IMG/VR virus record: IMGVR_UViG_3300034152_000478 | Coordinates: 1-64,000 of that record | Reading direction: 5' to 3' (one strand) | DNA: 64,000 nucleotides | Source of the DNA: a virus | Part shown: positions 2,158 through 15,526 of the stretch, piece by piece | How the letters are laid out: the number at the start of each line of letters is the position of its first letter | Position numbering within the stretch: position 1 is the stretch's first letter | Position numbers and translations under genes: made by a program | Notes under the pieces: generated by a model | Databases searched by the model: none | Told to the model about the DNA's origin: nothing | What the model saw: the letters and a program-made list of their open reading frames with translations, nothing else

Positions 2158-2243
2158 TGGAGGAAGGTAGAGGTAATGCTCCCCGTGCCTTTTACAACAC
2201 CCCAGATGTTCAAAACCTGTTTGTAGCTTCTACGGTACCTTCC
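2158..2243 (-). tRNA. non-canonical tRNA-Ser(TGA)-like gene
   Basis: GGAAGGT/ACCTTCC acceptor plus TCCA; CAGGT-TTTGAAC-ATCTG anticodon arm; long variable arm; atypical T-loop AGCATTA and 3-nt D-loop. Confidence 0.6.
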
Positions 2244-2760: not shown

Positions 2761-2836
2761 TGGTAGCGGGGGGGAGAATTGAACTCCCACTGACCCGGCG
2801 TATGAGACCGGCGACCTACCATTAGACTACCCCGCT
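2761..2836 (-). tRNA. tRNA with CAT anticodon (Met or Ile2)
   Basis: AGCGGGG/CCCCGCT acceptor, CCGGT-CTCATAC-GCCGG anticodon arm, TTCAATT T-loop, ACCA. Confidence 0.85.
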
Positions 2837-2940
2837 ATAGTAAAAGCCACACTGGTCAGCCACTCGCTACCCACCAGGCTCTATACCGACCAATTAAGGT
2901 CCGCCTGCCTAAGCCTTGTCCGCTGTGTGTGGCTTGTTTT

Positions 2941-3016
2941 TGGTCGGGCGACCTGGACTTGAACCAGGAACCTCACGGCCCCAAACCGCGAATTCTGCCA
3001 ATTGAAATACCGCCCG
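2941..3016 (-). tRNA. tRNA-Pro(TGG)
   Basis: CGGGCGG/TCGCCCG acceptor, loop TTTGGGG, TTCAAGT T-loop, ACCA. Confidence 0.9.
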
Positions 3017-3031
3017 TATTAGTATATACGT

Positions 3032-3199
3032 CTACTTTTTATCTAATTCTGCTGCTGCTCCAAAAATGTACCAAAGATAGTGACAAAATCGTATCGGATT
3101 CACCTTCAACATAACCTGCATGCGCCCTATGAATTCTGTACAGGTAGGACACATTCCAGTCTCTTCTTCGGCCTTTTCCTCACAAAAGCGGCATTCCAT
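3032..3199 (-). CDS. small zinc-ribbon protein (55 aa, below the ORF track cutoff)
   Basis: MECRFCEEKAEEETGMCPTCTEF... with two CxxC motifs and a TAGGAG RBS. Confidence 0.65.
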   Translation of the reverse strand: MECRFCEEKAEEETGMCPTCTEFIGRMQVMLKVNPIRFCHYLWYIFGAAAELDKK

Positions 3200-3306
3200 G
3201 ATAACTCCTATTTTCGAAACCGTCTATTATAATATCGGGCGCGTCACAGAAAAACTTCATGAAAAAACACCACTTTGTCGTATTTTAATCTTAGGAGGAC
3301 ATCAAT

Positions 3307-3648
3307 ATGGGTAGAAGACGTATCTATAATGACAGGCTTGAGCGTGAACGTGCTTGGAGGAAGACGCCCAGCGGTAGGGCGTATTACATGTACCAGAAGC
3401 TGCGGGAGCGCTGTAAGAGAGATGGTATTACCTTACTCATCTCCAGCAAGGTTTTCCGAGGGATCTATCTCAAGGCAGAACGGTGTGGAATATGTGGTGA
3501 GCCATTTGGTGAAACTTTCAGGCTGCATAAATCTGTCTATGCCGATGGAAATCCATGTGTGCCGGATACATTAACGATTTGTCATGTTTCCTGCCACAAG
3601 AAAAAATTGCGAAAAAGATTGAAGAAACCTGGAAAATCAGCCCGATAG
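3307..3648 (+). CDS. Zn-binding HNH-like protein
   Basis: RCGICG...CHVSCH; AGGAGG RBS. Confidence 0.6.
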   Translation: MGRRRIYNDRLERERAWRKTPSGRAYYMYQKLRERCKRDGITLLISSKVFRGIYLKAERCGICGEPFGETFRLHKSVYADGNPCVPDTLTICHVSCHKKKLRKRLKKPGKSAR

Positions 3649-3661
3649 TATTATAGGCAAA

Positions 3662-3832
3662 ATGAGCAAACAAACAAAACAAATCCAGCACAAAGTGCTT
3701 CAATTGATCAAGGAATCACCGGGTCTGGATGTCGATGACCTGGCTGAAGAATTGAACGTTCCCGTAAGAGCAGTCTCTAAGGCTGTAAACAAACTCTTAA
3801 GGGCAGGTAAGATTAGTTCGCAAGAGGACTAA
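3662..3832 (+). CDS. small winged-helix DNA-binding protein (56 aa, below cutoff)
   Basis: VLQLIKESPGLDVDDLAEELNVPVRAVSKAVNKLLRAGKI is a wHTH pattern. Confidence 0.7.
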   Translation: MSKQTKQIQHKVLQLIKESPGLDVDDLAEELNVPVRAVSKAVNKLLRAGKISSQED

Positions 3833-3856
3833 ACACGTCCATGTGAGGAGGGCGTC

Positions 3857-4588
3857 ATGTTGGTCTACAAGGCGACCAACTTACTTAACAACAAATCCTA
3901 TATAGGCAAGACTGTTAAGACACTGAGAGTTAGGCGTCTTGAGCATGAAAATGCGGCATTACGAAGATGCGATAATTGTATTTTGCATAAGGCCCTTAGG
4001 AAATATGGTGCAGATAATTTTCAATGGGAAATTATTGCTGTTGCTGAATCACAAATTCGATTAAGTGCATTGGAAGCTCAATACATAGAACATTTTGATA
4101 CATTTCGTAATGGTTATAACAGCACGATCGGTGGTGAAGGGACTTGTGGATTCAGATTTTCTGATATGCAAAAGGAACAGCTATCGCAGATACATCGTGG
4201 CAAACACTTATCAAGAAAACATCGTGATAGTATTAGTCGGGCTGTTGCAAGACGATGGATAAACAAAGATAGCAGAAGCAAATTGATTGCAGGCAGAACA
4301 CGAGTTGGACGTTTTCTATCTGATGAAGCTATACTAAAACGCAATCAAACATCTAAGAGCCGCAATATTGATTATGGTGTTCATAGAAGAGGTACTGAGC
4401 TTGATGAAGAGCATCGCCAGCATATTGCACAAGGGCATCAAAAGAAGTCTAAATTGTCATGGGAGGATGTTGCTGTCATCAGAAGTGAAAGAGCTAAAGG
4501 AACTGCTCTGAAGACTTTGGCTGCTAAATTTCATGTTACTGCAGCTACCATTTCAGATATAGCGAACTATAAAACTTGGAAAACATAG
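3857..4588 (+). CDS. GIY-YIG homing endonuclease (NUMOD3-like repeats, C-terminal HTH)
   Basis: LVYKATNLLNNKSYIGKT...R..EH, NGYNSTIGGEG. Confidence 0.9.
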   Translation: MLVYKATNLLNNKSYIGKTVKTLRVRRLEHENAALRRCDNCILHKALRKYGADNFQWEIIAVAESQIRLSALEAQYIEHFDTFRNGYNSTIGGEGTCGFRFSDMQKEQLSQIHRGKHLSRKHRDSISRAVARRWINKDSRSKLIAGRTRVGRFLSDEAILKRNQTSKSRNIDYGVHRRGTELDEEHRQHIAQGHQKKSKLSWEDVAVIRSERAKGTALKTLAAKFHVTAATISDIANYKTWKT

Positions 4589-4594
4589 AGGTGT

Positions 4595-5560
4595 ATGATG
4601 ACCTTCAAAAAATACCCAAGCATCGAAAACAGCTATAGAGACAAATTCGTACAGTATATGCTGGACCAGTATCCGGAGCTGTGCGACGCGGTTTACATCG
4701 TCACTGAAAAAATCGACGGTTCCAACATCCAATTGATCTTTGAACCTTCTAAGCCAGTACAGGTTGCTTCGCGTAATCGGGTATTAACACCTGGCGAAGA
4801 CTTTTTCGGTGTTTGGGATGTGCTACAGGATGTCGAATTGGCCGCGCTGATTAACACTCTGACGCTGTTTGTCGACAAAACCCATCAGACAATCAATCTG
4901 TATGGTGAACTTTTTGGACCTGGAATTCAGAGACGTATTGACTACGGAGACAAGCGTCGTCTGTTGTTTTTCGATGCAGCGATCAATGAAGAGCTGATTC
5001 CACAGGGCGAATTTGTGCAGTTTATGAGCTTGCATGGTTTTCCGAATCTGATGGTTCCTATTGTAACTGTCATCAATACGCTGCAGGCTGCTCTTGACTG
5101 GAGCGTCGAAGATTCTGTTACCAGAGTCAATCCTGATGGTCATAGCGTCCAAGAGAAACGATGTATGGAAGGTGTGGTTATTAAGCCACGCGATAAGGTG
5201 TATCGATCTCATACTGGCAGTACTTTTTACCTCAAGAAGAAAGGTGAGAAGTTCGGCGAAAAAGAGCAGAAGGTCAAAGTGCCGCGTGAGCAGAAGGAAT
5301 ACCGCGAAGAAGTAATCCAGATGTATGAAACGTTTTTTGGCTTGATCAATGAGAATAGGATCAAGAGCGTGTTTTCTAAACATGGTGAAATCGAAGAGCC
5401 TCGTCAAATCGGTGACTACATCAAGCTCGTAATGGCTGATGCCAAAGAGGAGTTTCTCAAAGATTACGAAGATGAGTTGGCACCGTTCAACAAAGATGAG
5501 CTAAAATACGTTTTTAATGTGGGCAACATGATAGTTGGATTGTTAAAGGAGTATCTATGA
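4595..5560 (+). CDS. RNA ligase, Rnl2 family
   Basis: FKKYPSIEN N-terminus; motif I TEKIDGSN; LYGELFG; FFDA; EGVVIKP; LKKK; C-terminal INENRIKSVFSKHG domain typical of T4 Rnl2. Confidence 0.9.
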   Translation: MMTFKKYPSIENSYRDKFVQYMLDQYPELCDAVYIVTEKIDGSNIQLIFEPSKPVQVASRNRVLTPGEDFFGVWDVLQDVELAALINTLTLFVDKTHQTINLYGELFGPGIQRRIDYGDKRRLLFFDAAINEELIPQGEFVQFMSLHGFPNLMVPIVTVINTLQAALDWSVEDSVTRVNPDGHSVQEKRCMEGVVIKPRDKVYRSHTGSTFYLKKKGEKFGEKEQKVKVPREQKEYREEVIQMYETFFGLINENRIKSVFSKHGEIEEPRQIGDYIKLVMADAKEEFLKDYEDELAPFNKDELKYVFNVGNMIVGLLKEYL

Positions 5561-5808
5561 GCGAGCAGCAAAAGCAGCCGCCTAAACTGATTCAAATCCA
5601 GGTCACAGTGACCGACCAGCGACTTACCGGAACAGAAAAGGCACAACAGACTCAGAGCGTGACTATTCCGGCTGAATATGTTGATACAGGTCAGGCAGCA
5701 CAGATTGCAAACGCGATTGCTTTTGTCAGTCTTGGCCTCAGTGAGATGTTTAACCAGAAGCTCATTGCGGCACATGATGCGCTACCGCCTCCGCCGCAGC
5801 AGCAATAA
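5557..5808 (+). CDS. hypothetical protein
   Basis: 83 aa ORF translationally coupled to the ligase, AGGAG RBS. Confidence 0.65.
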   Translation: MSEQQKQPPKLIQIQVTVTDQRLTGTEKAQQTQSVTIPAEYVDTGQAAQIANAIAFVSLGLSEMFNQKLIAAHDALPPPPQQQ

Positions 5809-5883
5809 TCGGGCGTGGTGTAAAGGTTCGCACGCGACCCTGATAAGGTTGAAGACGGGGTTCAATTCCCTGCGCCCGGACCA
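5809..5883 (+). tRNA. tRNA-Ile(GAT)
   Basis: CGACC-CTGATAA-GGTTG anticodon arm, TTCAATT T-loop, ACCA. Confidence 0.9.
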
Positions 5884-5885
5884 GT

Positions 5886-5962
5886 CGGCGCGTAGTTCAA
5901 TTGGCCAGAGCACCTGCCTTACAAGCAGGAAGTTGGAGGTTCGAGTCCTCCCGTGCCGACCA
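5886..5962 (+). tRNA. tRNA-Val(TAC)
   Basis: CCTGC-CTTACAA-GCAGG anticodon arm, TTCGAGT T-loop, ACCA. Confidence 0.93.
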
Positions 5963-5982
5963 TTTTTCTTTCAGGAGTACTT

Positions 5983-6858
5983 ATGAGTGTTTTCACAGTT
6001 ACTTGCGGAGACATTAAGTGTAATGCCAATTGCCCATTTTGCATTTCGAAGATGACTGAAGCTTATCGGCGTGGGGCATGTGGTGATCGCTTTGACTGGC
6101 GACGCTTTAGAAAGGCTATGCGCTTAGCGCGGACACACAAGGTCGATACTGCCCTTATTACTGGCTTTGGCGAACCCACTCTGTGTGATGATCTGCCTGG
6201 CTTGATTGTGGAATTGGACGATTTTTTTCCTCACATTGAGTTGCAAACAAATGGCATCACAGTTTTGCATGATGATTACAAGCATGCTTGGCCAACATGG
6301 AAAAACATGGGTCTTGACACAGTGGCTGTGAGCTGCGCAAGCCTTGACAAGGTAGTTAACAACGATGCAATGCGCATTGTTGATTCTCGTTTTTCTGTTC
6401 GTGGTGCGATTTCCAGACTGGCAGTATTAGGCTTTACGGTTCGTGTCAGTGTGCAGTTAACCAATTTTTTGCCATATCCAAATGGCAAACTTTTTACCAA
6501 CAGCCTTTTTATCGACACCATTCGTGACGCCAAAAAGCTTGGGGCAGAACAGATCACTTTTCGGCTGCTTGGAACTGCCGCAAACTCGAAAGATACTGTT
6601 GCAACAGATTGGGTCAAGAAGCACGCCCCGGACCAGAAAACTGCTTCACACATGATGCTTAAAACCATGGAGAACATCGGAGCCAACCAGTGGGGCAAAT
6701 ATCACTGGGGTGGTCGACTGTATGATTTTGAGGGCATGTCGGTTTGTGTGGCAGACTGTTTGACTGAGATGCCGAATGACGAGATACCTCGAAGCTATAT
6801 TTTTGATGGGCGACGCCTGCGACATAGCTGGCAATATGAAGGATTTGTGATTTTCTAA
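5983..6858 (+). CDS. radical SAM protein
   Basis: CNANCPFC (CxxxCxxC), ITGFGEP, LQTNG; probable start at 5983 after AGGAG. Confidence 0.85.
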   Translation: MSVFTVTCGDIKCNANCPFCISKMTEAYRRGACGDRFDWRRFRKAMRLARTHKVDTALITGFGEPTLCDDLPGLIVELDDFFPHIELQTNGITVLHDDYKHAWPTWKNMGLDTVAVSCASLDKVVNNDAMRIVDSRFSVRGAISRLAVLGFTVRVSVQLTNFLPYPNGKLFTNSLFIDTIRDAKKLGAEQITFRLLGTAANSKDTVATDWVKKHAPDQKTASHMMLKTMENIGANQWGKYHWGGRLYDFEGMSVCVADCLTEMPNDEIPRSYIFDGRRLRHSWQYEGFVIF

Positions 6859-7076
6859 TGCATAAAGAAAAAGATTTCCTATATAACGTCATTTTGCCCA
6901 AAATAGACAAATGTCCTGTATGTGGCAAGGATGACTTTGAGGAGATTGCATATATTGGACGTGAAGAAGCCGGGCTTCTCTGCTTGTGGTGTCTTCATGT
7001 CACATGGCCGAAAGATGCAAGGGAAACCGTTTGCGAAATGAGAAGTGTTAATAGATTTGACATATTGGGGGCGTAG
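6858..7076 (+). CDS. small zinc-ribbon protein
   Basis: CPVC...CLWC; its last codons overlap the tRNA-Arg 5' end. Confidence 0.55.
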   Translation: MHKEKDFLYNVILPKIDKCPVCGKDDFEEIAYIGREEAGLLCLWCLHVTWPKDARETVCEMRSVNRFDILGA

Positions 7077-7144
7077 CATAATTGGACGAATGCAGGGGAC
7101 TTCTAATCCCCAGACTGGGAGTTCGAGTCTTCCCGCCCCTGCCA
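7067..7144 (+). tRNA. tRNA-Arg(TCT)
   Basis: GGGGA-CTTCTAA-TCCCC anticodon arm, TTCGAGT T-loop, GCCA. Confidence 0.92.
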
Positions 7145-7153
7145 GATAGATAA

Positions 7154-7214
7154 TAAGTCTGATAGCTCACTAAGCGCGGTATATATGCCCCGCTTATTGT
7201 GAGCTACAGACTTA
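7154..7214 (+). other. long intergenic RNA hairpin
   Basis: TAAGTCTG/CAGACTTA, TAGCTCAC/GTGAGCTA, TAAGCG/CGCTTA and GGT/GCC stacked stems. Confidence 0.7.
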
Positions 7215-7230
7215 GAATGAGAGCAATAAG

Positions 7231-7476
7231 ATGAGCTTTTACGATCAGCTTGACAGAGAAAGGCGCTGTTGGTTTTGCTATGAGGTTATGGAGCAGAGCT
7301 TCAGCCCGCTAACTGGTGCCGGTTTGAAATGTAAGAACAAGGCGTGTCACGAATGTGGCGTGCATGTTTGCCCTACGATCACTGTCGATGCGAATAGGGC
7401 TAATGTTGTCATGGGAAGAGTGATAAAAGGGCAGGTGAAACCTAACGAGCCATTTGAAGCACGAGGTGGCAAATGA
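7231..7476 (+). CDS. Cys-rich hypothetical protein
   Basis: 81 aa ORF with multiple CxxC motifs. Confidence 0.6.
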   Translation: MSFYDQLDRERRCWFCYEVMEQSFSPLTGAGLKCKNKACHECGVHVCPTITVDANRANVVMGRVIKGQVKPNEPFEARGGK

Positions 7477-7637
7477 TGACAGAACATACTATTAAATGTC
7501 GTATTTGTGGTCGTCCCTATAAGTTCTATGCTCATAAGTGTGGCGATCAATCTGCTTGTCCAGCTTGTATAAGGGCAGCAGAAAAAGAGATACAGCAAGA
7601 TTGGGTGAAAAATCCCAATAGACTTTACAAAACCTAA
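7473..7637 (+). CDS. small zinc-ribbon protein (54 aa, below cutoff)
   Basis: CRICGRPY...CPAC; GAGG RBS; ATGA overlap with the upstream gene. Confidence 0.6.
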   Translation: MMTEHTIKCRICGRPYKFYAHKCGDQSACPACIRAAEKEIQQDWVKNPNRLYKT

Positions 7638-7714
7638 GGCGATGTGGGCTAATTGGTATAGCTGCGACACTTAAAATGTCGTGTTTCCCGGTTCGAGTCC
7701 GGGCATCGCTACCA
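7638..7714 (+). tRNA. tRNA-Leu(TAA), short variable loop
   Basis: CGACA-CTTAAAA-TGTCG anticodon arm, 5-nt variable loop, TTCGAGT T-loop, ACCA. Confidence 0.88.
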
Positions 7715-7730
7715 ACAAAAGGAGGCTGAC

Positions 7731-8015
7731 ATGGAATACACTTACTGGGATGTCCACTTTAAGAGAACAAAGCAAAATACGCTGAGGTTTATCAATGCAC
7801 TTTTTCAGGTTAATGGAAAGATAAGCGACTCTGATACTTTTGGTGTTGATTGTGGCAAATTGGAGCACCAGCGAAACTTACACCACTGTTATGTTTTAGT
7901 ACGAGTTGCTATTCCTAAGGGCAAAGAATTGGATTTTGAGTGTCAAAGTTTCGGCAAAGGAACGCTACAAGAGCCGCCTAAAGTAGGTGTGCAAGCTGTT
8001 GGTGGTGTACAATAA
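7731..8015 (+). CDS. hypothetical protein
   Basis: 94 aa ORF, AGGAGG RBS. Confidence 0.7.
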   Translation: MEYTYWDVHFKRTKQNTLRFINALFQVNGKISDSDTFGVDCGKLEHQRNLHHCYVLVRVAIPKGKELDFECQSFGKGTLQEPPKVGVQAVGGVQ

Positions 8016-8519
8016 GTGAAGCTGTCTCAGCGAAGTCAGGCTCTTGTTGCTGTCAAAACAGCAGGTTATTACGCAAGAAATGATGGCTCTGTTGTGTCTC
8101 CGAATGGTCGCGTGCTGTCTTTGTGTAGCACTCCGAAAGGCTATCTGTATTTTACATATCGTCTCAATGGGACAACTGTACAAATTATGGTGCATCGTTT
8201 AATTGCTTTTCAGAAATTTGGATATCAAATGTTTGTTCGTGGTGTTCAAGTCAGACATCTCGACAATTGCAAGACTAATAATCGTGCTACCAATATTGCA
8301 ATCGGCAGTGATTCTGATAATAAATATGATAAGCCAGAACAGGAGCGTCAAAAACATGCAATTAAGGCGGCTATGTCATCCAGGCTGTTCACAAACGAGC
8401 AAGCTGAGGAAATTCGTGCATTGAATGCTGATGGAGTTCCTTATAGTGAGCTTTGTGTGATGTTTGGATGTGCGAAAAGCACCATATCATATATAATCAA
8501 TGGGAAGACGTACAAATAG
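8016..8519 (+). CDS. HNH homing endonuclease with C-terminal HTH (paralog of 2210..2746)
   Basis: VHRLIA...VRHLDNCKTNNRATNIAIG..DN; ends just before a tRNA. Confidence 0.85.
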   Translation: MKLSQRSQALVAVKTAGYYARNDGSVVSPNGRVLSLCSTPKGYLYFTYRLNGTTVQIMVHRLIAFQKFGYQMFVRGVQVRHLDNCKTNNRATNIAIGSDSDNKYDKPEQERQKHAIKAAMSSRLFTNEQAEEIRALNADGVPYSELCVMFGCAKSTISYIINGKTYK

Positions 8520-8523
8520 AAAT

Positions 8524-8600
8524 CCCCACATGGCGCAATTGGCAGACGCGTGCGGTTCAAGCCCGCAATGTTGAAGGTTCAACTCCTTCTGTGGGGACCA
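8524..8600 (+). tRNA. tRNA-Leu(CAA), short variable loop
   Basis: TGCGG-TTCAAGC-CCGCA anticodon arm, Leu-type D arm GCG-CAATTGGCAGA-CGC, ACCA. Confidence 0.88.
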
Positions 8601-8616
8601 TAATAAGGAGTAGGTC

Positions 8617-8850
8617 ATGAGTCATTTTGCTGCAGGCGGACATGCCCCGGCGCTGTTGGGACAGTTATCGGCCAAGAGTTTCAACACCAGGCTTTCCATC
8701 GACTTCGAGGATGAAAGCACTGTACGCTTCAATTGCGCATTTGCTGTTTATGAAGGCCAGGGCAAGTACTTGGTCGTTTACACTGAGCATAATGGCTATC
8801 ATGTATTCATGGCTCGTTGTGTAACTCGCACACATTGCGAGGCGTATTAA
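8617..8850 (+). CDS. hypothetical protein
   Basis: 77 aa ORF, AGGAG RBS. Confidence 0.65.
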   Translation: MSHFAAGGHAPALLGQLSAKSFNTRLSIDFEDESTVRFNCAFAVYEGQGKYLVVYTEHNGYHVFMARCVTRTHCEAY

Positions 8851-9110
8851 TGATCCTCAATGCGACGATCACGAAAGATTCATGTAGCGATTGGTGGCTG
8901 ATTGAAATAATCGCCTTAGATGCTGTTACTCAGGGTGAAGATTTCTATAAGGCTGTAGACATGGGTATCGATCTTATCCGCTGCATAGCTAATGACGACA
9001 AGTTGCCAGTCGGCGTGACGATTCGGAGTCATGTGCATGCTGGCATTAACAAGGGGTTTGTTGAGTTTACTGTAGAGCCCAACAAGGAATTACTTAAGCG
9101 AATGCAATAA
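8850..9110 (+). CDS. HicB-like antitoxin N-terminal domain protein
   Basis: WWLIEIIALDAVTQGEDFYKAVDMGIDLI matches the HicB pattern W-x-x-E-x-x-x-L-x-x-x-TQG-x-x-x-x-A; ATG at 8850 is coupled to the upstream stop. Confidence 0.55.
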   Translation: MILNATITKDSCSDWWLIEIIALDAVTQGEDFYKAVDMGIDLIRCIANDDKLPVGVTIRSHVHAGINKGFVEFTVEPNKELLKRMQ

Positions 9111-9112
9111 GT

Positions 9113-9191
9113 GGGGATGTGGCGCAATTTTGGCAGACGCGCCAGGTTTAGGCCCTGGTTGTTGAGAGTTCGAGTCTCTCCGTCCCCACCA
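9113..9191 (+). tRNA. tRNA-Leu(TAG), short variable loop
   Basis: CCAGG-TTTAGGC-CCTGG anticodon arm, Leu-type D arm, TTCGAGT T-loop, ACCA. Confidence 0.88.
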
Positions 9192-9212
9192 TTTTCTTTA
9201 GGAGCACTGATA

Positions 9213-9536
9213 ATGGCGCGTGCAACTCGTCAGACAACAAAAGTGACAGCCTTCGTCGAGCGACTTGATGCGATGGATACTCGCACCATTATACGCACAA
9301 GGGCGGCCATAGTAGTGGCATGGAGTACCGTTATTCTGCTGCTGGTCCTTGCGCTGAATGCTTTTATTGGTTATTTGACTGACTGGTCATTCTTTGTTCC
9401 ATCTGGCGAAGGGCCTATTGTTGAGTCTAAGATACATGTGGGAATTATACTTGTGTATGTGTACAGCTTTCTATATCTGATCGCTTGGTGTATTGTTTTC
9501 CCTATTCATGTTGGTAAGATGATTACTGGAGTTTAG
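9213..9536 (+). CDS. two-TM membrane protein
   Basis: Start MARATRQ after TAGGAG; two hydrophobic segments. Confidence 0.7.
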   Translation: MARATRQTTKVTAFVERLDAMDTRTIIRTRAAIVVAWSTVILLLVLALNAFIGYLTDWSFFVPSGEGPIVESKIHVGIILVYVYSFLYLIAWCIVFPIHVGKMITGV

Positions 9537-9538
9537 GC

Positions 9539-9766
9539 ATGAAAGCACCGTTTACCAAGGAACAGGTGGCGAATATTACCACGTGGCAGAGATGCGCTTT
9601 TGTGCATCCTTTCACGCGTGGAAGCCCAATGTGTGAGGCTACTTTGGAAGCAACAACTGAAGGGCTTGTGTGTCCAGTCTGTCATTATACACAGGATTGG
9701 GTGCATGATTATATTGCCAATGGGACTGAATGGATGAATGGTATCTCGAAAGTAGATGGAGTATAG
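9539..9766 (+). CDS. hypothetical zinc-ribbon protein
   Basis: HPFT...C...CPVC. Confidence 0.65.
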   Translation: MKAPFTKEQVANITTWQRCAFVHPFTRGSPMCEATLEATTEGLVCPVCHYTQDWVHDYIANGTEWMNGISKVDGV

Positions 9767-9832
9767 CTCAGGGGTTAGAGCAGCACCCTTATAAGGTGAA
9801 GGCCGGTGGTTCAAATCCACCTACTCCAACCA
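9757..9832 (+). tRNA. tRNA-Ile(TAT)
   Basis: TGGAGTA/TACTCCA acceptor, loop CTTATAA, TTCAAAT T-loop, ACCA. Confidence 0.88.
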
Positions 9833-9833
9833 T

Positions 9834-9908
9834 GGGTCCGAAGCTTTAAAAGTGAAGCACGAGGCTTTTAACCTCGGGAACAAGGGGCAGTACCTTGCGG
9901 ACCTACCA
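9834..9908 (+). tRNA. tRNA-Lys(TTT), non-canonical T-loop
   Basis: CGAGG-CTTTTAA-CCTCG anticodon arm; A8; T-loop GGCAGTA; ACCA. Confidence 0.8.
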
Positions 9909-9927
9909 TAGAAAACAGGAGACTGCT

Positions 9928-10224
9928 ATGCACTATAGCGATCTGTCTTTAACATTTAAGGGCGAACTGCTACAGCTTACACGACGTGGCAAAGAGAAGC
10001 AAATTGAAGATGCGATAGAAAGTTTTGATGCTGAAAAAATTAAGGATATTTTGCGTCAGGCTGCTCGCAAACATCAATTTAAACAACATTTTGATTGCAA
10101 ACATCGTGACCCATGTTGTGTAGATGCTTGGAAAGATCAATTTATACGATTTTGTAAGCAGTATAATCTGCGTTATTCTCCAGATGACTCGTATGCTTAT
10201 AGGGTGTGGGTATCGTGGGATTAA
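9928..10224 (+). CDS. hypothetical protein
   Basis: Start MHYSD after AGGAG. Confidence 0.65.
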   Translation: MHYSDLSLTFKGELLQLTRRGKEKQIEDAIESFDAEKIKDILRQAARKHQFKQHFDCKHRDPCCVDAWKDQFIRFCKQYNLRYSPDDSYAYRVWVSWD

Positions 10225-10377
10225 TCAGTATTAAAGTTGACCGAGAAAAACTCAGAGCGCATATCAAACGGATCTGTAAAGGCAACATACGCAAGAAATG
10301 TAAGATATGCCAAGAGGGAAATTGTCCTTTTCTGCACGTGGTTCGTGCCGAAATTGAAACGATGGGAAAGGAGTAGT

Positions 10378-10677
10378 ATGATGTGGTTGAAGAATAGGCT
10401 GTTGTGGCCTTTGAGGCTTGTCAGTCGACTGCTTGACAGTTGGCGTGCTCGGCGCGAGAAGCGCAAGTTTGATGCAATAGTGGCCAAATTCAAAGAGCTT
10501 CCGATTGTTGACCGTATGCGAAAGCCTCTAAATAACGAAGAAACTCTTGCGGTCATGGAGCGTCTTGATCAGCTTGAAGAGGGTATTCTGCATGCGGGTT
10601 ATCCCTCCAATCTCAAGCGAGAAATAAATGAACTGCGTAAAGGGACGCGAAAAGACTTTGACGATCTGAATGCTTAA
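10378..10677 (+). CDS. hypothetical protein
   Basis: Start MMWLKN after AGGAG; similar to the next ORF. Confidence 0.6.
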   Translation: MMWLKNRLLWPLRLVSRLLDSWRARREKRKFDAIVAKFKELPIVDRMRKPLNNEETLAVMERLDQLEEGILHAGYPSNLKREINELRKGTRKDFDDLNA

Positions 10678-10686
10678 CGGTATAAC

Positions 10687-10932
10687 ATGCACAAGCTGTT
10701 TGAGAGATTGAAAAATTGGCTGTTTCGTTTGCTTGAAGAATGGCGCTTCCGTCGAATCGTTAGGAAAATGAAGACTGTGCCGCACATCAGGCGTCTATAC
10801 GAGAATCCTTCGACAATTGATATGCCGGATGGTGTCTTGGAAGCTAATAGGCGACTTCAACGAGAAGATCCAGAGTCATTCAGAAAGCTAAAAAACTGTA
10901 TTGAAGATGAGCCGCCACAGATTGATGTGTGA
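10687..10932 (+). CDS. hypothetical protein
   Basis: 81 aa ORF. Confidence 0.6.
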   Translation: MHKLFERLKNWLFRLLEEWRFRRIVRKMKTVPHIRRLYENPSTIDMPDGVLEANRRLQREDPESFRKLKNCIEDEPPQIDV

Positions 10933-10936
10933 GGGT

Positions 10937-11014
10937 GCGGCCGTAGCTCAAATGGTCAAGAGCGGCAGGTTGTGGCCCTGCAGATCCGGATTCAATTTCC
11001 GGCGGTCGCCCCCA
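10937..11014 (+). tRNA. tRNA-His(GTG)
   Basis: GCAGG-TTGTGGC-CCTGC anticodon arm, C discriminator; no encoded G-1. Confidence 0.85.
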
Positions 11015-11025
11015 CGCACATCTGC

Positions 11026-11098
11026 AGCCGTGTAGCTCAGCCGGTAGAGCGCAGCGCTTTGAACGCTGAGGTCCCAGGTTCGATCCCTGGCGCGGCTG
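11026..11098 (+). tRNA. tRNA-Gln(TTG), CCA not encoded
   Basis: CAGCG-CTTTGAA-CGCTG anticodon arm, TTCGATC T-loop, ends G-CTA. Confidence 0.88.
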
Positions 11099-11120
11099 CT
11101 ATTTTTGAAGGAGAGCCAAC

Positions 11121-12345: not shown

Positions 12346-12672
12346 ATGGACGTACAAAGCCTTGGCATGCTTCATCGACGAGTTTATAGGACGCTTCGCA
12401 GAGGTCGTAATAAGGCCAAAAGTGCCGATCAAATTTGTCGTGAGGCGAAGGTCCCTGAGGAGCGAAGAACGCAGAGACCTACGCGGGATGTTATCCGCGA
12501 GCTAATCCGTCAAGGATTTACCATTTTGTCGTGCTCTCGGGGGTTTTATCTACCCAGAGACAAAGCGGACGTTGACGAATACGTTGGTAGTTTGATCAGC
12601 AGGCAGGGAGCTATCCAGGAGCGTGTAGATAGCATTTTGGCTGCAGCAAAGGCAGAGGGACTGACTGATTAG
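12346..12672 (+). CDS. winged-helix-like DNA-binding protein upstream of Ro60
   Basis: AKSADQI...RDVIRELIRQGFTILSCSRGFYL wHTH-like pattern; AGGAGG RBS. Confidence 0.6.
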   Translation: MDVQSLGMLHRRVYRTLRRGRNKAKSADQICREAKVPEERRTQRPTRDVIRELIRQGFTILSCSRGFYLPRDKADVDEYVGSLISRQGAIQERVDSILAAAKAEGLTD

Positions 12673-12681
12673 GAGGTCACA

Positions 12682-14265
12682 ATGAACACGAGACTCTTTA
12701 AGAATCAAAGAGGTGCGTTGGCCCCTAAGGCTGACACTGTGAACGACGCTGGTGGAGTCGCCTACAAGCGTACCGACAAGGAAGCCCTGGCGCAGTACGC
12801 GCTGACTGGCACCTTTGGCAATGCGTTTTACGTTACTGCCGAAGTCCAGCTTGATAGGGCTCTGGATCTGGCTGACAAGGTGGATGACGCTTTCGTCGCC
12901 GGTCTGGCTGTCTATGCTCGCCAGTTTGGCTACATGAAGGACATGCCTGCCTTTTTGCTGGCTGTCCTGTGTGCTCGTCAGAGCAAGTATGTCGAGTTCG
13001 TTTTCGAGCGGGTAATCGATAATGCTCGTATGCTGCGTACTTTCGTTCAGATTCTGCGTAGCGGTCTGACTGGAAGAAAGTCTTTCGGTCGGCGTATTAA
13101 GCGACTAATTCGCAACTGGCTTGCTAATAAGTCTGACGACGCGCTTTTCCGTGCGACCGTTGGTCAGAATCCGTCTATGTCTGATATCATCAAGATGGTT
13201 CACCCTAAGGCTGAGGGTCGTTCACGCAATGCTCTCTATGGGTACCTGCTTGACAAGAAGTACGACGGACGCTCTCTACCTAAGTTGGTAAAGGCGTTTG
13301 AGCGCTTCAAGGATACTCCTGGCACGGTTGAGATCCCTGATCTGCCGTTTCGCATGCTGACTCACCTGCCGCTTAAGACTGAGCAGTGGGTGCAGATTGC
13401 AAAGAATATGCCTTGGACTGCCCTTCGTATGAACCTGAATACACTTGCGCGTCATGGTGTTTTCAACGTGGATGGCATGACTGAGTTGATTGCTGGCAAG
13501 TTGCGCGATCCGCAGCTTATCAGACGTGCCAAGGTGTTCCCTTACCAGCTTTTGGCTGCGTATCTGTTTACGCTTGATACTCGGGAGGTTCCGAACGAGA
13601 TTATCGAAGCACTTCAGGATGCGATGGAAATCGCAATTGAGAATGTGCCAGAAATGGATATTCGCGTTGCTGTGTGTCCGGATGTCTCCGGATCGATGGA
13701 CTGGTGCAGCGTGACTGGTAATCGCGGCTCTGCTTCAAGCAAGATCAAGTGTACTCATGTTGCTGGTCTGATTTCGGCTATCTTCATGCGACGTGCGCGT
13801 GACACCATCTTGCTTCCATTCGAGTTTGGCGTCGTGAACATGCGCCTTAACAAGCGTGATAGTGTAATGACTAACGCTCGCAAGATTGCAGATATTGGCG
13901 GAGGCGGAACTAATGTATCTGCTCCTCTCCAGTTGCTGAACAAGCGTAAGGAGAAGGTGGATGCTGTGATTATCGTCTCTGATAACGAGTCTTGGGTTGA
14001 TACTCATGGCTGGTCTGCTCGGCGCGGTACTCGTACCATGTCTGAGTGGGGCACGCTGCGCCAGCGTTGTCCTGAGGCACGCCTGGTGCTTATGGATCTT
14101 GTTGTTGGCGACAATACCCAGGCGCGAAACAAGGCTCAGGAAGTCTACAACGTTGCTGGGTTCTCTGACACGGCGTTGGGTCTTGTGGCCGACTTTGTCG
14201 TAAATGGACCCAACACTCAGCTCGTGGAGGTAATCGAGCAGCATATCCCTGAGCTTGAAGGCTAA
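12682..14265 (+). CDS. rsr: Ro60/TROVE domain RNA-binding protein (Rsr-like) with C-terminal vWA
   Basis: NDAGGVAY N-terminus, TGTFGNAFY, MPWTALRMNLNTL, PYQLLAAY, vWA MIDAS DVSGSM, GGTN, VSDNESW, VAGFSD. Confidence 0.95.
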   Translation: MNTRLFKNQRGALAPKADTVNDAGGVAYKRTDKEALAQYALTGTFGNAFYVTAEVQLDRALDLADKVDDAFVAGLAVYARQFGYMKDMPAFLLAVLCARQSKYVEFVFERVIDNARMLRTFVQILRSGLTGRKSFGRRIKRLIRNWLANKSDDALFRATVGQNPSMSDIIKMVHPKAEGRSRNALYGYLLDKKYDGRSLPKLVKAFERFKDTPGTVEIPDLPFRMLTHLPLKTEQWVQIAKNMPWTALRMNLNTLARHGVFNVDGMTELIAGKLRDPQLIRRAKVFPYQLLAAYLFTLDTREVPNEIIEALQDAMEIAIENVPEMDIRVAVCPDVSGSMDWCSVTGNRGSASSKIKCTHVAGLISAIFMRRARDTILLPFEFGVVNMRLNKRDSVMTNARKIADIGGGGTNVSAPLQLLNKRKEKVDAVIIVSDNESWVDTHGWSARRGTRTMSEWGTLRQRCPEARLVLMDLVVGDNTQARNKAQEVYNVAGFSDTALGLVADFVVNGPNTQLVEVIEQHIPELEG

Positions 14266-14272
14266 ACAAAAT

Positions 14273-14357
14273 ATACCGAGATGCTGGATTGTGTTTACAT
14301 GCATAAGATTAAGGATTTTATCAGCAAAAAACGACACAACCACCCCTTGCTCGGTGT
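14273..14357 (+). ncRNA. Y-RNA-like unit 1 (AU-rich hairpin cargo)
   Basis: ATACCGAG-ATGC...TTGTGT-TTACAT...ACACAA...CTTG-CTCGGTGT. Confidence 0.75.
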
Positions 14358-14372
14358 TTTAACTTGACGAAC

Positions 14373-14485
14373 GTGCAGGAATGCCGACAAGTGATTACAT
14401 GGATAAAGCATTTTTATGTGAGTTGGTTCAAGCCCGACACGCTGCGGTAGCAGTGAAAAAGTCACTGTCATTTTTTGTCCTGCAT
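14373..14485 (+). ncRNA. Y-RNA-like unit 2 (T-arm plus short hairpin cargo)
   Basis: GTGCAGGA-ATGC...ACAT...GTTGG-TTCAAGC-CCGAC...TTTG-TCCTGCAT. Confidence 0.75.
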
Positions 14486-14522
14486 ACTTTATAGGCTGGG
14501 CATCCTTATCTGCCTGCCAGAA

Positions 14523-14584
14523 GTTGGAATGCGCTTGTGTTTACATGTGACATACAAAAGAAACACGAGCACACCTTGTCCAAC
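14523..14584 (+). ncRNA. Y-RNA-like unit 3 (minimal scaffold)
   Basis: GTTGGA-ATGC-GCTTGTGTTT-ACAT...AAACACGAGC...CTTG-TCCAAC. Confidence 0.75.
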
Positions 14585-14600
14585 CGACTTTGAAAACAAT

Positions 14601-14665
14601 CCGGAATGCTGATTGTGAGTACATGACTTGTAATCATTGACCGCTCTCAATCAATCCTTGTCCGG
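14601..14665 (+). ncRNA. Y-RNA-like unit 4 (Thr-UGU anticodon-stem-loop-like cargo)
   Basis: CCGGA-ATGC-TGATTGTGAGT-AC-ATGA-CTTGTAA-TCAT...GCTCTCAATCA...CTTG-TCCGG. Confidence 0.75.
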
Positions 14666-14683
14666 TACTAATACGATAACGAT

Positions 14684-14752
14684 CCGGGATGCTGGCTGTG
14701 TGTACATGCTATGAAAAAGCTCCTTTATTCCACACTGCTAAAACTTGCCCGG
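14684..14752 (+). ncRNA. Y-RNA-like unit 5 (Phe-GAA anticodon-loop-like cargo)
   Basis: CCGGG-ATGC...ACAT-GCT-ATGAAAA-AGC...CTTG-CCCGG. Confidence 0.72.
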
Positions 14753-14769
14753 CTCTAAAATAACAACTC

Positions 14770-14893
14770 ACTGGGATGCTGTTGTGTATACATTCAGAGG
14801 TAGCTTAACAGGTAGAGCAGCGGCGAAAGCCGAAGACGAAGGTTCGAGTCCTTCCCATTGAGCCAAAAACTACTCAACAATTACTTGCCCAGT
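14770..14893 (+). ncRNA. Y-RNA-like unit 6 containing a complete anticodon-less tRNA cloverleaf (14794-14865)
   Basis: ACTGGG-ATGC...ACAT-[TCAGAGG..D arm..CGGC-GAAA-GCCG..GAAGG-TTCGAGT-CCTTC-CCATTGA-GCCA]...CTTG-CCCAGT. Confidence 0.8.
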
Positions 14894-14904
14894 TCTTTAA
14901 TGAT

Positions 14905-15043
14905 AGGTTTGGAATGCCTGTTGTGATTACATGCTTGTAACGCCGGTAATGTTGGTTCGAATCCAGCCGTCCCCGATTTATGGGGGCGTCGTCTAATGGC
15001 AGGACACCGTTAAAATAGTCACAGCGATCCCTCGTCCGAGCCT
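14905..15043 (+). ncRNA. Y-RNA-like unit 7, YrlA-like circularly permuted tRNA domain
   Basis: AGGTTTGGA-ATGC...ACAT; T-arm GTTGG-TTCGAAT-CCAGC; looped acceptor CGTCCCC/GGGGGCG; D-arm GTCT..GGAC; CTCG-TCCGAGCCT. Confidence 0.82.
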
Positions 15044-15060
15044 TCACCAAAGAATAACAT

Positions 15061-15196
15061 GACGGGATGCTGTTAGGTTTACATGATCAGGAACTGAATG
15101 TCATAGGTTCGAATCCTATCTCCTCGACCACTAACGAGGAGTAGCTCAGTTGGATAGAGCGTCAGTAAAATGCGACTTGACGAACCCTTGCCCGTC
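15061..15196 (+). ncRNA. Y-RNA-like unit 8, YrlA-like circularly permuted tRNA domain
   Basis: GACGGG-ATGC...ACAT; ACTGA/TCAGT stem; T-arm ATAGG-TTCGAAT-CCTAT; acceptor CTCCTCG-ACCACTAA-CGAGGAG; D-arm GCTC..GAGC; CTTG-CCCGTC. Confidence 0.85.
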
Positions 15197-15206
15197 TTTT
15201 TAAATT

Positions 15207-15337
15207 TGAGGTATGCAGGCGTGGGTCCACATGGGACCCTGTGCAGTGGACATCTGGCCCGGCATTTTGATTCGCAAGCGCGGAGGGAGCCCAGCCGGGG
15301 AATAACTGCTCCCCAGGGGTCCCGCCTACATATCTCA
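15207..15337 (+). ncRNA. divergent unit 9, GC-rich structured RNA lacking the CTTG motif
   Basis: TGAGGTATGCAGGCG/CGCCTACATATCTCA closing stem (14 of 15 positions pair); ATGC-N12-ACAT spacing kept. Confidence 0.6.
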
Positions 15338-15351
15338 TAATAAAAAACTAT

Positions 15352-15445
15352 GCTGGAATGCTGTTTCGGGTTTACATGTGACCATCATAACATCTATGCT
15401 CGGGAGACCGGGCACTGACAACGACTCGGGCATACCTTGTCCAGC
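15352..15445 (+). ncRNA. Y-RNA-like unit 10 (GNRA hairpin cargo), followed by T7
   Basis: GCTGGA-ATGC-TGTTTCGGGTT-TACAT...TGCTCGG-GAGA-CCGGGCA...GACTCGGGCA..CTTG-TCCAGC-TTTTTTT. Confidence 0.75.
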
Positions 15446-15526
15446 TTTTTTTGATAGCCGGTAGAGAGGAATAAGTCATATTGCTCTGGAGCCAGAAATG
15501 GCTCCAACGCAATAAGGAGGTGGCTT

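What the first reader, a model, noticed from the sequence alone, without database searches (positions are those of the whole stretch)
12346..15452. Phage Ro60 followed by a ten-unit array of Y-RNA-like scaffolds carrying different cargos, mostly tRNA mimics
Seen: 8 nt after the Ro60/TROVE stop codon, about 1.2 kb of ORF-free DNA splits into ten tandem units (14273, 14373, 14523, 14601, 14684, 14770, 14905, 15061, 15207, 15352) separated by mostly A/T-rich linkers. Each unit has a closing stem, ATGC, a 10-12 nt upper-stem strand, ACAT, a variable cargo, the complementary strand, a YTYG motif (CTTG in seven units, absent in unit 9) and the closing strand. Stem sequences differ between units but pairing is kept. 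Established: bacterial Ro60 (Rsr) binds Y RNAs through a stem whose 3' strand carries CUUG, and YrlA RNAs carry a permuted tRNA-like domain. The loci I know have one or a few Y RNAs (e.g. Salmonella rsr-yrlBA-rtcBA). Inference: one Ro60 ring could be loaded with a library of RNA adaptors that display different tRNA parts. These might act as decoys for host tRNA-targeting defences, or recruit different host enzymes. The upstream wHTH gene may regulate the operon.
Basis: partly seen in the sequence, partly recalled or inferred. Interest (0 to 1): 0.95.

Follow-up and report, generated by a model that had tools for sequence, protein, structure and literature searches.

The report
Phage Ro60 with ten Y RNAs
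An uncultured 151-kb phage encodes the RNA-binding ring protein Ro60 followed by ten small RNA genes that share one Ro60-docking handle but display different pieces of tRNA. Similar arrays of three to nine such RNAs lie next to Ro60 genes in many bacteria and phages, far more than the one or two in the papers I could read.

Summary
A canonical Ro60 gene (12682-14265) is followed after 9 nt by ten tandem units. Nine share an invariant handle: a closing stem, AUGC, an upper stem, UACAU, a variable cargo, the return strand, CYUG and the closing strand. Pairing is kept by compensatory changes (93% of cells paired against 71% shuffled). Unit 9 keeps only the 5' half of the handle.

The handle is that of Rfam YrlA. 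Units 7 and 8 are YrlA-like permuted tRNAs. Unit 6 nests an unpermuted tRNA with a GAAA tetraloop in place of the anticodon loop. Unit 2 carries a T arm plus a capped helix. Units 1, 4 and 5 carry anticodon-loop-like hairpins.

The array is not unique. My covariance models find 3-9 such units on the Ro60 strand in most of about 130 related loci, including cultured Undibacterium (8). In five whole bacterial genomes all 22 hits lie at the rsr locus or on one adjoining contig. In phage contigs the arrays sit inside tRNA islands.

It is a very large Y RNA array, a new variant of a known kind. Expression, processing and Ro60 binding are untested. The wHTH regulator idea is unsupported. This scan has noted many-RNA Ro60 arrays on other DNA before (e1-272486, e1-5790182, e1-5935525).

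The parts
12346..12672 (+). 108-aa ORF that ends 9 nt before the Ro60 start codon.
   Evidence: It matches only phrog_2113, of unknown function (1.8e-9), and has no Pfam hit even at E 10. A single-sequence AlphaFold model has pLDDT 62 with an H-H-H-beta-beta-H order that is compatible with a winged helix but does not show one. No homologue is found in 133 other Ro60 loci.
12682..14265 (+). Ro60/Rsr orthologue (TROVE HEAT-repeat ring plus vWA domain), 527 aa
   Evidence: Pfam vWA_Ro60 2.6e-16 and TROVE 3.3e-8. phrog_850 RNA-binding protein 1.8e-37. PDB 2NVO Rsr 4.5e-22. It is 84-62% identical to four metagenomic proteins and about 54% identical to Rsr of Verrucomicrobiota and Acidobacteriota.
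14275..14355 (+). Unit 1: canonical handle. The cargo is a hairpin with a 6-bp stem and the 7-nt loop UUAAGGA, followed by an A-rich tail.
   Evidence: R1 73.5 bits, R2 54.5 bits. The loop fits the anticodon-loop signature Y-U-NNN-R-A.
14374..14484 (+). Unit 2: canonical handle with TTTG. The cargo is a hairpin, a T arm (GUUGG-UUCAAGC-CCGAC) and a capped 6-bp helix.
   Evidence: R1 63.4 bits. Fold. Its last two elements have the layout of the medium cargo class seen in other loci.
14523..14584 (+). Unit 3: canonical handle with a minimal 15-nt cargo
   Evidence: R1 59.4 bits. Fold.
14600..14666 (+). Unit 4: canonical handle. The cargo is the hairpin AUGA-CUUGUAA-UCAU, which resembles an anticodon stem-loop with UGU at the anticodon positions.
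   Evidence: R1 64.9 bits.. The same CUUGUAA loop occurs in L037:8041-8181.
14684..14752 (+). Unit 5: canonical handle. The cargo is a 3-bp hairpin with the 7-nt loop AUGAAAA, followed by a U-rich tail.
   Evidence: R1 71.4 bits. Fold.
14770..14893 (+). Unit 6: canonical handle enclosing an unpermuted tRNA-like cloverleaf (14794-14862). A GAAA tetraloop replaces the anticodon loop, and the 3' strand of the acceptor stem is followed by G-CCA.
   Evidence: Rfam tRNA 46.5 bits against a gathering score of 29, with 4 nt in place of the 7-nt loop. R1 63.5 bits. ARAGORN does not call it a tRNA.
14905..15043 (+). Unit 7: handle with CTCG. The cargo is a YrlA-type permuted tRNA (T arm, capped acceptor-like helix, D arm) preceded by CUUGUAA.
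   Evidence: Rfam YrlA 22.1 bits, E 0.075. R1 61.7 bits.
15061..15196 (+). Unit 8: canonical handle. The cargo is a YrlA-type permuted tRNA.
   Evidence: Rfam YrlA 45.3 bits, E 1.6e-8, full length 1-114, below the gathering score of 69. R1 64.1 bits.
15207..15337 (+). Unit 9: aberrant unit. It has a closing stem, ATGC, an 11-bp upper stem and CACAT, but the 3' side reads ACAT-AUCUCA. The internal loop is therefore paired shut and CUUG is missing. The cargo is G+C-rich and about 85 nt long.
   Evidence: Sequence. It was left out of the training alignment and is not matched by R1 with filters off at E 10 or by R2. It has no credible Rfam match.
15352..15445 (+). Unit 10: canonical handle. The cargo is two hairpins, one closed by a GAGA tetraloop. 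It is followed by T7 (15446-15452), a likely end of the transcript.
   Evidence: R1 66.0 bits. A terminator-like site at 15428-15442 plus the T run.
4595..5560 (+). Context: T4 Rnl2-type RNA ligase in the tRNA island upstream
   Evidence: Pfam RNA_ligase 5.8e-18 and T4_Rnl2_C 2e-11.
2761..11099 (.). Context: island of 11-12 tRNA genes with HNH and GIY-YIG endonuclease genes, ending 1.6 kb before Ro60
   Evidence: ARAGORN and Rfam. Pfam.

Best explanation
This is a phage Ro60 (Rsr) gene with a polycistronic array of Y RNA genes: nine canonical units and one degenerate unit.

Shown here: every canonical unit carries the same handle. This is a closing helix made by its two ends, an asymmetric internal loop (AUGC opposite NNCYUG), an upper helix and UACAU. 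It is the handle of the YrlA family, and in whole genomes it is found essentially only beside Ro60 genes on the Ro60 strand.

Inferred:
- The array is transcribed with or just after Ro60 and ends at the T7 run after unit 10.
- It is cut in the A/U-rich linkers into RNAs of about 60-140 nt.
- Each RNA docks on the phage Ro60 ring through the handle, as Y RNAs do in Deinococcus, Salmonella, Mycobacterium and Thermus phage phiLo.

The cargo of each unit points away from the ring and differs between units: an anticodon-loop-like hairpin, a T arm plus capped helix, a permuted tRNA body, or a whole tRNA with a sealed anticodon arm. The most likely role is therefore that one protein is turned into a set of particles. 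Each particle would present a different tRNA surface to tRNA-binding enzymes or nucleases such as PNPase, RNase P, modification enzymes and repair enzymes.

The locus lies beside a tRNA island and an Rnl2 RNA ligase. This points to handling of tRNA and RNA damage or turnover during infection. That functional step is a guess, at about 40%.
For: - Ro60 identity.
- Ten clustered units on one strand.
- Independent folds.
- Compensatory changes among the window's own units, on an alignment not fitted to the structure: 93.2% paired against 71.0% shuffled and 33-45% slid, with 13 of 15 pairs changed on both sides.
- Across 143 units from 53 loci: 94.4% paired against 62.0% shuffled, and 658 against 177 cells changed on both sides. 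AUGC, UACAU and UUG are (near-)invariant.
- The Rfam YrlA consensus shows the same AUGC and CUUG and matches unit 8 (45.3 bits, E 1.6e-8) and unit 7. A short unit of L037 matches Rfam YrlB.
- Linkage: nearly all hits in about 130 Ro60 loci lie on the Ro60 strand, usually right after the gene. In five whole bacterial genomes, 20 of 22 hits sit just after rsr and 2 sit at the start of an adjoining contig.
- The window's units are old paralogues. Handle identity is 64% within the array and 56% to other loci, and the nearest neighbours are often in other loci. The handle has therefore been kept by selection in each unit.
- Published work shows Rsr binding to YrlA and YrlB, co-transcription of Y RNAs from one precursor, and RNase P cleavage of YrlA (PMC4201824). 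It also shows a phage Ro60 binding two Y-like RNAs and PNPase (PMC12135203).
- Context: an Rnl2 ligase and a tRNA island. The same embedding in tRNA islands is seen in L001, L006, L010, L022 and L037.
Against: - There are no expression, processing or binding data for this phage.
- No sigma-70-like promoter stands out.
- The YrlA matches lie below Rfam's gathering score (45.3 against 69), so by Rfam's rule they are not members.
- Unit 9 lacks the 3' half of the handle and may not bind Ro60.
- Some Ro60 phages show no such handle: Myxococcus phage Mx1 (45% identical Ro60), L004 and Myrna. The pairing is therefore not universal.
- The covariation count across loci was made on an alignment fitted to the model.
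- No effector partner can be named from sequence.
Confidence: 0.85

Rival explanations
1. The units act mainly as free decoys. The anticodon-loop-like and tRNA-like cargos soak up host tRNA-cleaving defence nucleases or tRNA-modifying enzymes. Ro60 only stabilises the RNAs or is dispensable.
For: Among 143 units, 29 have a hairpin just after UACAU with a 7-nt loop of the form Y-U-NNN-R-A. Shuffled cargos give 0.96 on average, with a maximum of 5 in 200 shuffles. Window units 1 and 4 fit this, and unit 5 nearly does. The displayed triplets differ between units. The phage also carries 11-12 tRNAs and an Rnl2 repair ligase, the usual equipment against anticodon nucleases.
Against: The same arrays and loop types occur in bacterial chromosomes beside rsr, where a role against the cell's own defence makes little sense. 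The strict linkage to Ro60 and the invariant handle argue that Ro60 binding is central. The stems are short (3-6 bp). No nuclease target is known here. Related units inflate the loop count.
Confidence: 0.15
2. Only a few units, the YrlA-like ones, are functional Y RNAs. The rest are decaying duplicates or processing spacers.
For: Unit 9 has visibly lost the 3' half of the handle. Units 3 and 5 have very small or weakly folded cargos.
Against: Nine units keep every (near-)invariant handle position and their pairing, although the handles are only 49-76% identical to one another. Short-cargo units are a conserved class in most loci, and one matches Rfam YrlB, a Salmonella RNA shown to bind Rsr (PMC4201824).
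Confidence: 0.08
3. The repeats are not RNA genes. They are DNA-level or mRNA-level elements, such as REP-like palindromes, terminators or stabilisers of the Ro60 mRNA.
For: They are inverted repeats in an ORF-free 3' region, and some are followed by T runs.
Against: G-U pairs and strand-specific motifs are kept on one strand only: the hand-written scanner finds 393 units on the Ro60 strand and 26 on the other. The units contain tRNA-like domains scored by Rfam. They belong to a family with experimentally shown RNA products (PMC4201824).
Confidence: 0.02

Closest known systems
Bacterial Rsr (Ro60) with YrlA and YrlB Y RNAs (Salmonella rsr-yrlBA-rtcBA, M. smegmatis; Rfam RF02553 and RF02565; Chen et al. 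2014, PMC4201824)
   Same: The protein is a TROVE+vWA Ro60. The RNAs are encoded on the Ro60 strand next to the gene. The handle is the same: 5'/3' closing stem, AUGC, upper stem, CUUG. Units 7 and 8 have the YrlA permuted tRNA layout of T arm, capped acceptor-like helix and D arm. The short-cargo units resemble YrlB. Published Y RNAs also come from one precursor.
   Different: There are ten units in one uninterrupted 1.2-kb run, against two Y RNAs per species in that paper. Some cargo types are not described there: an unpermuted tRNA with a GAAA-capped anticodon arm and encoded CCA (unit 6), a T arm plus capped helix (unit 2), and anticodon-loop-like hairpins. There are no rtcBA or rtcR neighbours; the neighbours are a tRNA island and an Rnl2 ligase. 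The Rfam scores are below gathering.
Thermus phage phiLo Ro60 with Yrl1 and Yrl2 (PMC12135203; PDB 9KOP, 9L5Y)
   Same: It is a phage-encoded Ro60 with Y-like RNAs encoded beside it. That paper shows binding and a complex with host PNPase.
   Different: phiLo has two RNAs, upstream of the gene, recognised through a CGAA motif. Its protein is only distantly related (E 2.1e-8). Here there are ten RNAs downstream with the AUGC/CUUG handle.
Deinococcus radiodurans Rsr with Yrn1 and Yrn2 (the RYPER complex with PNPase)
   Same: The ring protein is its closest solved relative (2NVO). Several small RNAs are encoded beside the gene and made from a polycistronic precursor that also holds a tRNA (PMC4201824).
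   Different: According to that paper the Yrn1 handle and tRNA-like part evolved separately from YrlA. It describes at most four small RNAs, two of them accepted as Y RNAs.
Many-RNA Ro60-like arrays noted earlier in this scan on other DNA (e1-272486, e1-5790182, e1-5935525)
   Same: A shared handle with interchangeable, partly tRNA-like interiors, beside a Ro60-type gene, often inside phage tRNA operons. Those notes report 4, 8 and 7 units.
   Different: Those notes describe divergent or hidden Ro60-like proteins and other handles. Here both the protein and the handle are canonical Rsr and YrlA type. I did not check those notes.

Membership tests
Ro60 / Rsr (TROVE-vWA ring proteins) | TROVE (HEAT-repeat) domain followed by a vWA domain in one protein of about 500-540 aa | tested here: met
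   Pfam TROVE 3.3e-8 and vWA_Ro60 2.6e-16 in a 527-aa ORF. The match to Rsr 2NVO runs over residues 19-502.
Ro60 / Rsr (TROVE-vWA ring proteins) | Closed ring with a central cavity and an outer Y-RNA-binding surface | not tested
   I did not model the structure of this protein.
Bacterial Y RNA (functional definition) | Bound and stabilised by Ro60 | not testable with these tools
   This needs RIP, EMSA or a deletion strain.
Bacterial Y RNA (functional definition) | Encoded within a few kb of the Ro60 gene on the same strand | tested here: met
   Unit 1 starts 9 nt after the stop codon, and all ten units are on the + strand. In five whole genomes the handle occurs only at rsr or on one adjoining contig.
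Bacterial Y RNA (functional definition) | The 5' and 3' ends pair into a stem that carries a conserved internal loop or bulge | tested here: met
   Nine of ten units: (13 of 15 pairs covary). Unit 9 does not meet it.
YrlA (Rfam RF02553) | Score at or above Rfam's gathering threshold (69 bits) | tested here: not met
   The best score is unit 8 at 45.3 bits (E 1.6e-8); unit 7 scores 22.1 bits; the others do not match. The units are therefore YrlA-like, not Rfam-certified members.
YrlA (Rfam RF02553) | Permuted tRNA-like domain: T arm, capped acceptor-like helix and D arm, joined to the handle at the anticodon-stem side | tested here: met
   Units 7 and 8 only, by full-length alignment to the model with all three arms. 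Unit 6 has the opposite topology, being joined at the acceptor end.
YrlB (Rfam RF02565) | [quoted passage not shown] | tested here: inconclusive
   No window unit matches at E 10. A homologous short unit in L037 scores 39.6 bits against a gathering score of 97. Units 1, 3, 4 and 5 have the general shape.
tRNA (for the cargo of unit 6) | Cloverleaf with a 7-nt anticodon loop | tested here: not met
   Rfam tRNA gives 46.5 bits, but 4 nt (GAAA) stand in place of the loop. ARAGORN does not call it. It is a tRNA mimic, not a decoding tRNA.

The most novel reading that the evidence does not exclude
Ro60 loci in bacteria and phages generally encode modular display libraries. One docking handle is fused to different parts of tRNA: the anticodon stem-loop with varying triplets, the T arm plus capped acceptor-like helix, the elbow-containing body, or a whole tRNA with a sealed anticodon. 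[quoted passage not shown] Ro60 would then be a platform that presents each tRNA surface separately. It could sense, titrate or recruit tRNA-cleaving, tRNA-modifying or tRNA-repairing enzymes. Large phages would have expanded the set, to ten here, as part of their tRNA-centred conflict with host defences.
Probability: 0.3. Interest if true: 0.8.

Novelty: new variant of a known kind. Interest (0 to 1): 0.62.

Why it matters
Why bacterial Y RNAs imitate tRNA, and what their tRNA-like part touches, has been open since 2014. The papers I could read work with one or two Y RNAs per species, and the Rfam model sees only the tRNA-bodied class.

This locus, and the roughly 480 handle-bearing units my models found beside about 130 Ro60 genes, show that the usual state is an array of several RNAs with distinct, conserved cargo classes. 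That gives a natural dissection of the tRNA shape into parts, each on the same handle. Pull-downs with single units could then name the partner of each part.

Cultured bacteria with 3-8 units are available, for example Undibacterium umbellatum, Pragia fontium and Massilia horti. The idea can therefore be tested without this uncultured phage. For phage biology, it adds Ro60 particles to the tRNA and RNA-repair toolkit carried in tRNA islands.

Tried and rejected
The contigs of the closest Ro60 relatives (P0002 84%, P0005 83%, P0004 62% on a 147,663-bp contig) could not be fetched. The nearest array I could read is L006 (63%).
- Sequencing runs: none was listed for 12682-15480, and no RNA holder was listed.
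- Promoter and terminator scan: counts were at background. Only the T run after unit 10 is suggestive.
- wHTH claim: no Pfam hit at E 10, a low-confidence fold and no conserved neighbour. I left it as unknown.
- Unit 9 as a tenth canonical unit: rejected.
- Recent in-place duplication as the origin of the array: rejected, because handle identity within the array (64%) is close to that between loci (56%).
- Cultured phage model: Myxococcus phage Mx1 has the closest Ro60 among isolates (45%). It shows no R2 or YrlA hit next to the gene, and neither does mycobacteriophage Myrna.
- RtcB is absent from the phage.
- My hand-written motif scanner mis-joined some units (7 of 10 found in the window). 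I used it only for strand asymmetry and for L037.
- Literature searches for arrays or for names such as YrlC or YrlD found nothing. The 2020 Annual Review on bacterial Ro60 is not held, so I cannot exclude that it mentions larger sets.

Full report
**What is there**

The window is the first 64 kb of a single 150,882-bp virus record that CheckV rates as complete. It is a tailed phage, with a large terminase subunit, a portal and tail-spike-like proteins.

The ORF at 12682-14265 is a canonical Ro60. Pfam gives TROVE at 3.3e-8 and vWA_Ro60 at 2.6e-16. PHROGs gives phrog_850 at 1.8e-37. The best solved relative is Deinococcus Rsr 2NVO at 4.5e-22. It is 84-62% identical to four metagenomic proteins and about 54% identical to Rsr of Verrucomicrobiota and Acidobacteriota.

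The stop codon ends at 14265, and unit 1 begins 9 nt later.

**Is it more than chance?**

- ATGC-N9-13-ACAT occurs ten times in 1.1 kb, all on the + strand. The remaining 12 matches in 64 kb are scattered on both strands, and the rest of the genome has no cluster.
- Each unit on its own folds into closing stem, internal loop and upper stem.
- I aligned units 1-8 and 10 with MAFFT, so the alignment was not fitted to any structure. The 15 proposed pairs are formed in 93.2% of cells, against 71.0% after shuffling (0 of 500 shuffles reach it) and 33-45% when partners are slid. Thirteen of 15 pairs show changes on both sides.

Unit 9 has the 5' half (closing stem, ATGC, upper strand, CACAT), but on the 3' side ACAT pairs with ATG. 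The internal loop is therefore closed and CUUG is missing. I left unit 9 out of the alignment the model was built from, and that model does not find it even without filters.

**What the units are**

Rfam's YrlA model (RF02553) has the same AUGC after the 5' closing strand and CUUG before the 3' closing strand. It aligns end to end with unit 8 (45.3 bits, E 1.6e-8) and weakly with unit 7. Both scores are below the gathering score of 69.

The cargo of unit 6 scores 46.5 bits with the tRNA model, but a GAAA tetraloop stands where the anticodon loop should be. The 3' strand of its acceptor stem is followed by G-CCA. ARAGORN does not call it.

**The handle in other Ro60 loci**

I built a covariance model of the handle alone, R1, with 15 pairs and the cargo treated as an insertion. 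I ran it on loci fetched through Ro60 homologues from viral, metagenomic and genome collections.

- R1 found 102 and 172 hits. A second model, R2, built from 143 of these hits, found 162 and 317.
- Nearly all hits are on the Ro60 strand and most lie directly after the gene.
- On the 143-sequence alignment, 94.4% of cells pair against 62.0% shuffled, and 658 against 177 cells have changes on both sides. All 15 pairs covary, and AUGC, UACAU and UUG are (near-)invariant. This alignment is fitted to the model, so one search is the cleaner test.
- In five whole bacterial genomes of 4-7.6 Mb, 20 of the 22 R2 hits lie just after rsr. The other two lie at the start of an adjoining contig where the Undibacterium array is cut.

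**The array is large but not unique**

Counts by R2:
- Window: 9, plus the aberrant unit 9.
- L037: 8, plus one more found by eye and by my scanner, making 9.
- L082 (a Pyrinomonadaceae genome): 9, spread on both sides of the gene.
- L116, L121 and L126 (two Undibacterium isolates and a Burkholderiales MAG): 8. Undibacterium umbellatum: 8 in the whole genome.
- L010 and L022: 7. L006 (Ro60 63% identical): 6.
- Most other loci: 2-5.

The papers I could read describe two Y RNAs per studied species, and say that more remain to be found because some RNAs eluded bioinformatic discovery (PMC4201824). They describe two RNAs for Thermus phage phiLo (PMC12135203). I found no report of arrays. The 2020 review is not held.

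The handles of the window's units are 49-76% identical to each other, with a mean of 64% against 56% to units elsewhere. Their nearest neighbours are often in L006, L037 or L116. They are old paralogues, each kept intact, rather than a fresh amplification.

**Cargo classes**

Across loci the cargos fall into four groups:
- Short, 6-25 nt.
- Medium, about 52 nt: a T arm plus a capped acceptor-like helix.
- Long, 75-90 nt: the YrlA-type permuted tRNA.
- Others.

Among 143 units, 29 have a hairpin right after UACAU whose 7-nt loop reads Y-U-NNN-R-A, the anticodon-loop signature. Shuffled cargos give 0.96 on average, with a maximum of 5 in 200 shuffles. The units are related to one another, so this is not a clean probability.

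In the window:
- Units 1 (UUAAGGA) and 4 (CUUGUAA) fit the signature, and unit 5 (AUGAAAA) nearly does.
- Unit 2 has a T arm followed by a capped helix, as in the medium class.
- Units 7 and 8 are long.
- Unit 6 is an unpermuted tRNA mimic.
- Units 3, 9 and 10 show no tRNA feature.

Six or seven of the ten units therefore display some tRNA part. L037:8041-8181 carries the same CUUGUAA hairpin in front of a full permuted body. L010:1056-1172 encloses something ARAGORN calls tRNA-Val.

**Context**

Upstream lie 11-12 tRNA genes with HNH and GIY-YIG endonucleases, a T4 Rnl2-type RNA ligase and a radical-SAM protein. RtcB is absent.

L001, L006, L010 (12 tRNAs), L022 (18 tRNAs) and L037 also hold Ro60 and its units inside tRNA islands. 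L006 in addition carries HNH endonuclease genes. This suggests shared transcription and processing with tRNAs.

The 108-aa ORF before Ro60 has no family beyond phrog_2113, a low-confidence fold, and no counterpart at other Ro60 loci.

**How it most likely works**

Shown: a Ro60 gene, nine covarying YrlA-type handles with distinct cargos, and strict genomic linkage of handle and gene.

From published work on the family: Rsr binds such RNAs, several come from one precursor, and RNase P can cut the tRNA-like part (PMC4201824). A phage Ro60 forms a complex with its Y-like RNAs and host PNPase (PMC12135203).

Inferred for this phage: co-transcription with Ro60, an end at the T7 run after unit 10, cutting in the A/U-rich linkers, and one Ro60 species loaded with nine alternative RNAs that each present another tRNA surface.

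I put 0.85 on 'Y RNA array bound by the phage Ro60'. I put about 0.4 on the adaptor or display role in tRNA and RNA damage handling.

The rival readings are free decoys (0.15), mostly dead copies (0.08) and non-RNA repeats (0.02).

**Limits**

- No RNA data could be found.
- Mx1, the closest cultured phage by Ro60, lacks this handle.

**Verdict**

The locus is real and well formed. It is the largest array I saw of a type that is widespread but under-described. Earlier notes of this scan report comparable many-RNA arrays beside Ro60-like genes on other DNA.

Noticed in passing
L116, L121, L126 about 6627-8140; G002 (Undibacterium umbellatum) C25:39722-40311 and C26:506-864: Two cultured Undibacterium species and a Burkholderiales MAG carry 8 handle-bearing units directly after rsr. 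The first five have tiny cargos of 6-19 nt. They are a ready experimental model for many-RNA Ro60 loci.
   Followed up: partly
A5 alignment, 143 units from 53 loci; window units 1, 4 and 5: Hairpins just after the UACAU motif are strongly enriched for 7-nt loops of the form Y-U-NNN-R-A with varying middle triplets (29 observed against about 1 in shuffles). They look like anticodon stem-loops.
   Followed up: partly
L006:5470-5830: A phage-like contig whose Ro60 is 63% identical to the window's carries a tmRNA gene (Rfam 122.5 bits) just upstream of Ro60. After Ro60 come six Y-like units and then a tRNA island with HNH endonucleases.
   Followed up: no
L010:1056-1172 and L037:8041-8181: Y handles enclose sequences that ARAGORN calls tRNA-Val(gac) and tRNA-Thr(tgt). 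tRNAs or near-tRNAs nested in the handle therefore recur, as in window unit 6.
   Followed up: partly
window 4595-5560, 3857-4588, 5953-6858: A T4 Rnl2-type RNA ligase, a GIY-YIG endonuclease and a radical-SAM protein sit among the tRNA genes upstream of Ro60. The phage has no RtcB.
   Followed up: partly
window 2210-2746 (-) and 8016-8519 (+); L006:12281-12598: Two paralogous HNH endonuclease genes lie in the tRNA island, and the end of L006 resembles both. These look like homing endonucleases spreading among phage tRNA islands.
   Followed up: no
L135 (Myxococcus phage Mx1) 7691-8147 and about 8165-8270: Mx1 has the closest Ro60 of any isolated phage (45%), also within a tRNA island, but no canonical handle. 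A GGAATGC...GTACA stretch just before tRNA-Gly may be a divergent unit. Two small 'hypothetical protein' CDS fill the place where the array would be.
   Followed up: partly
window 9834-9905: Rfam finds a twelfth tRNA (38.7 bits) that ARAGORN did not list, directly after tRNA-Ile at 9757-9832.
   Followed up: no
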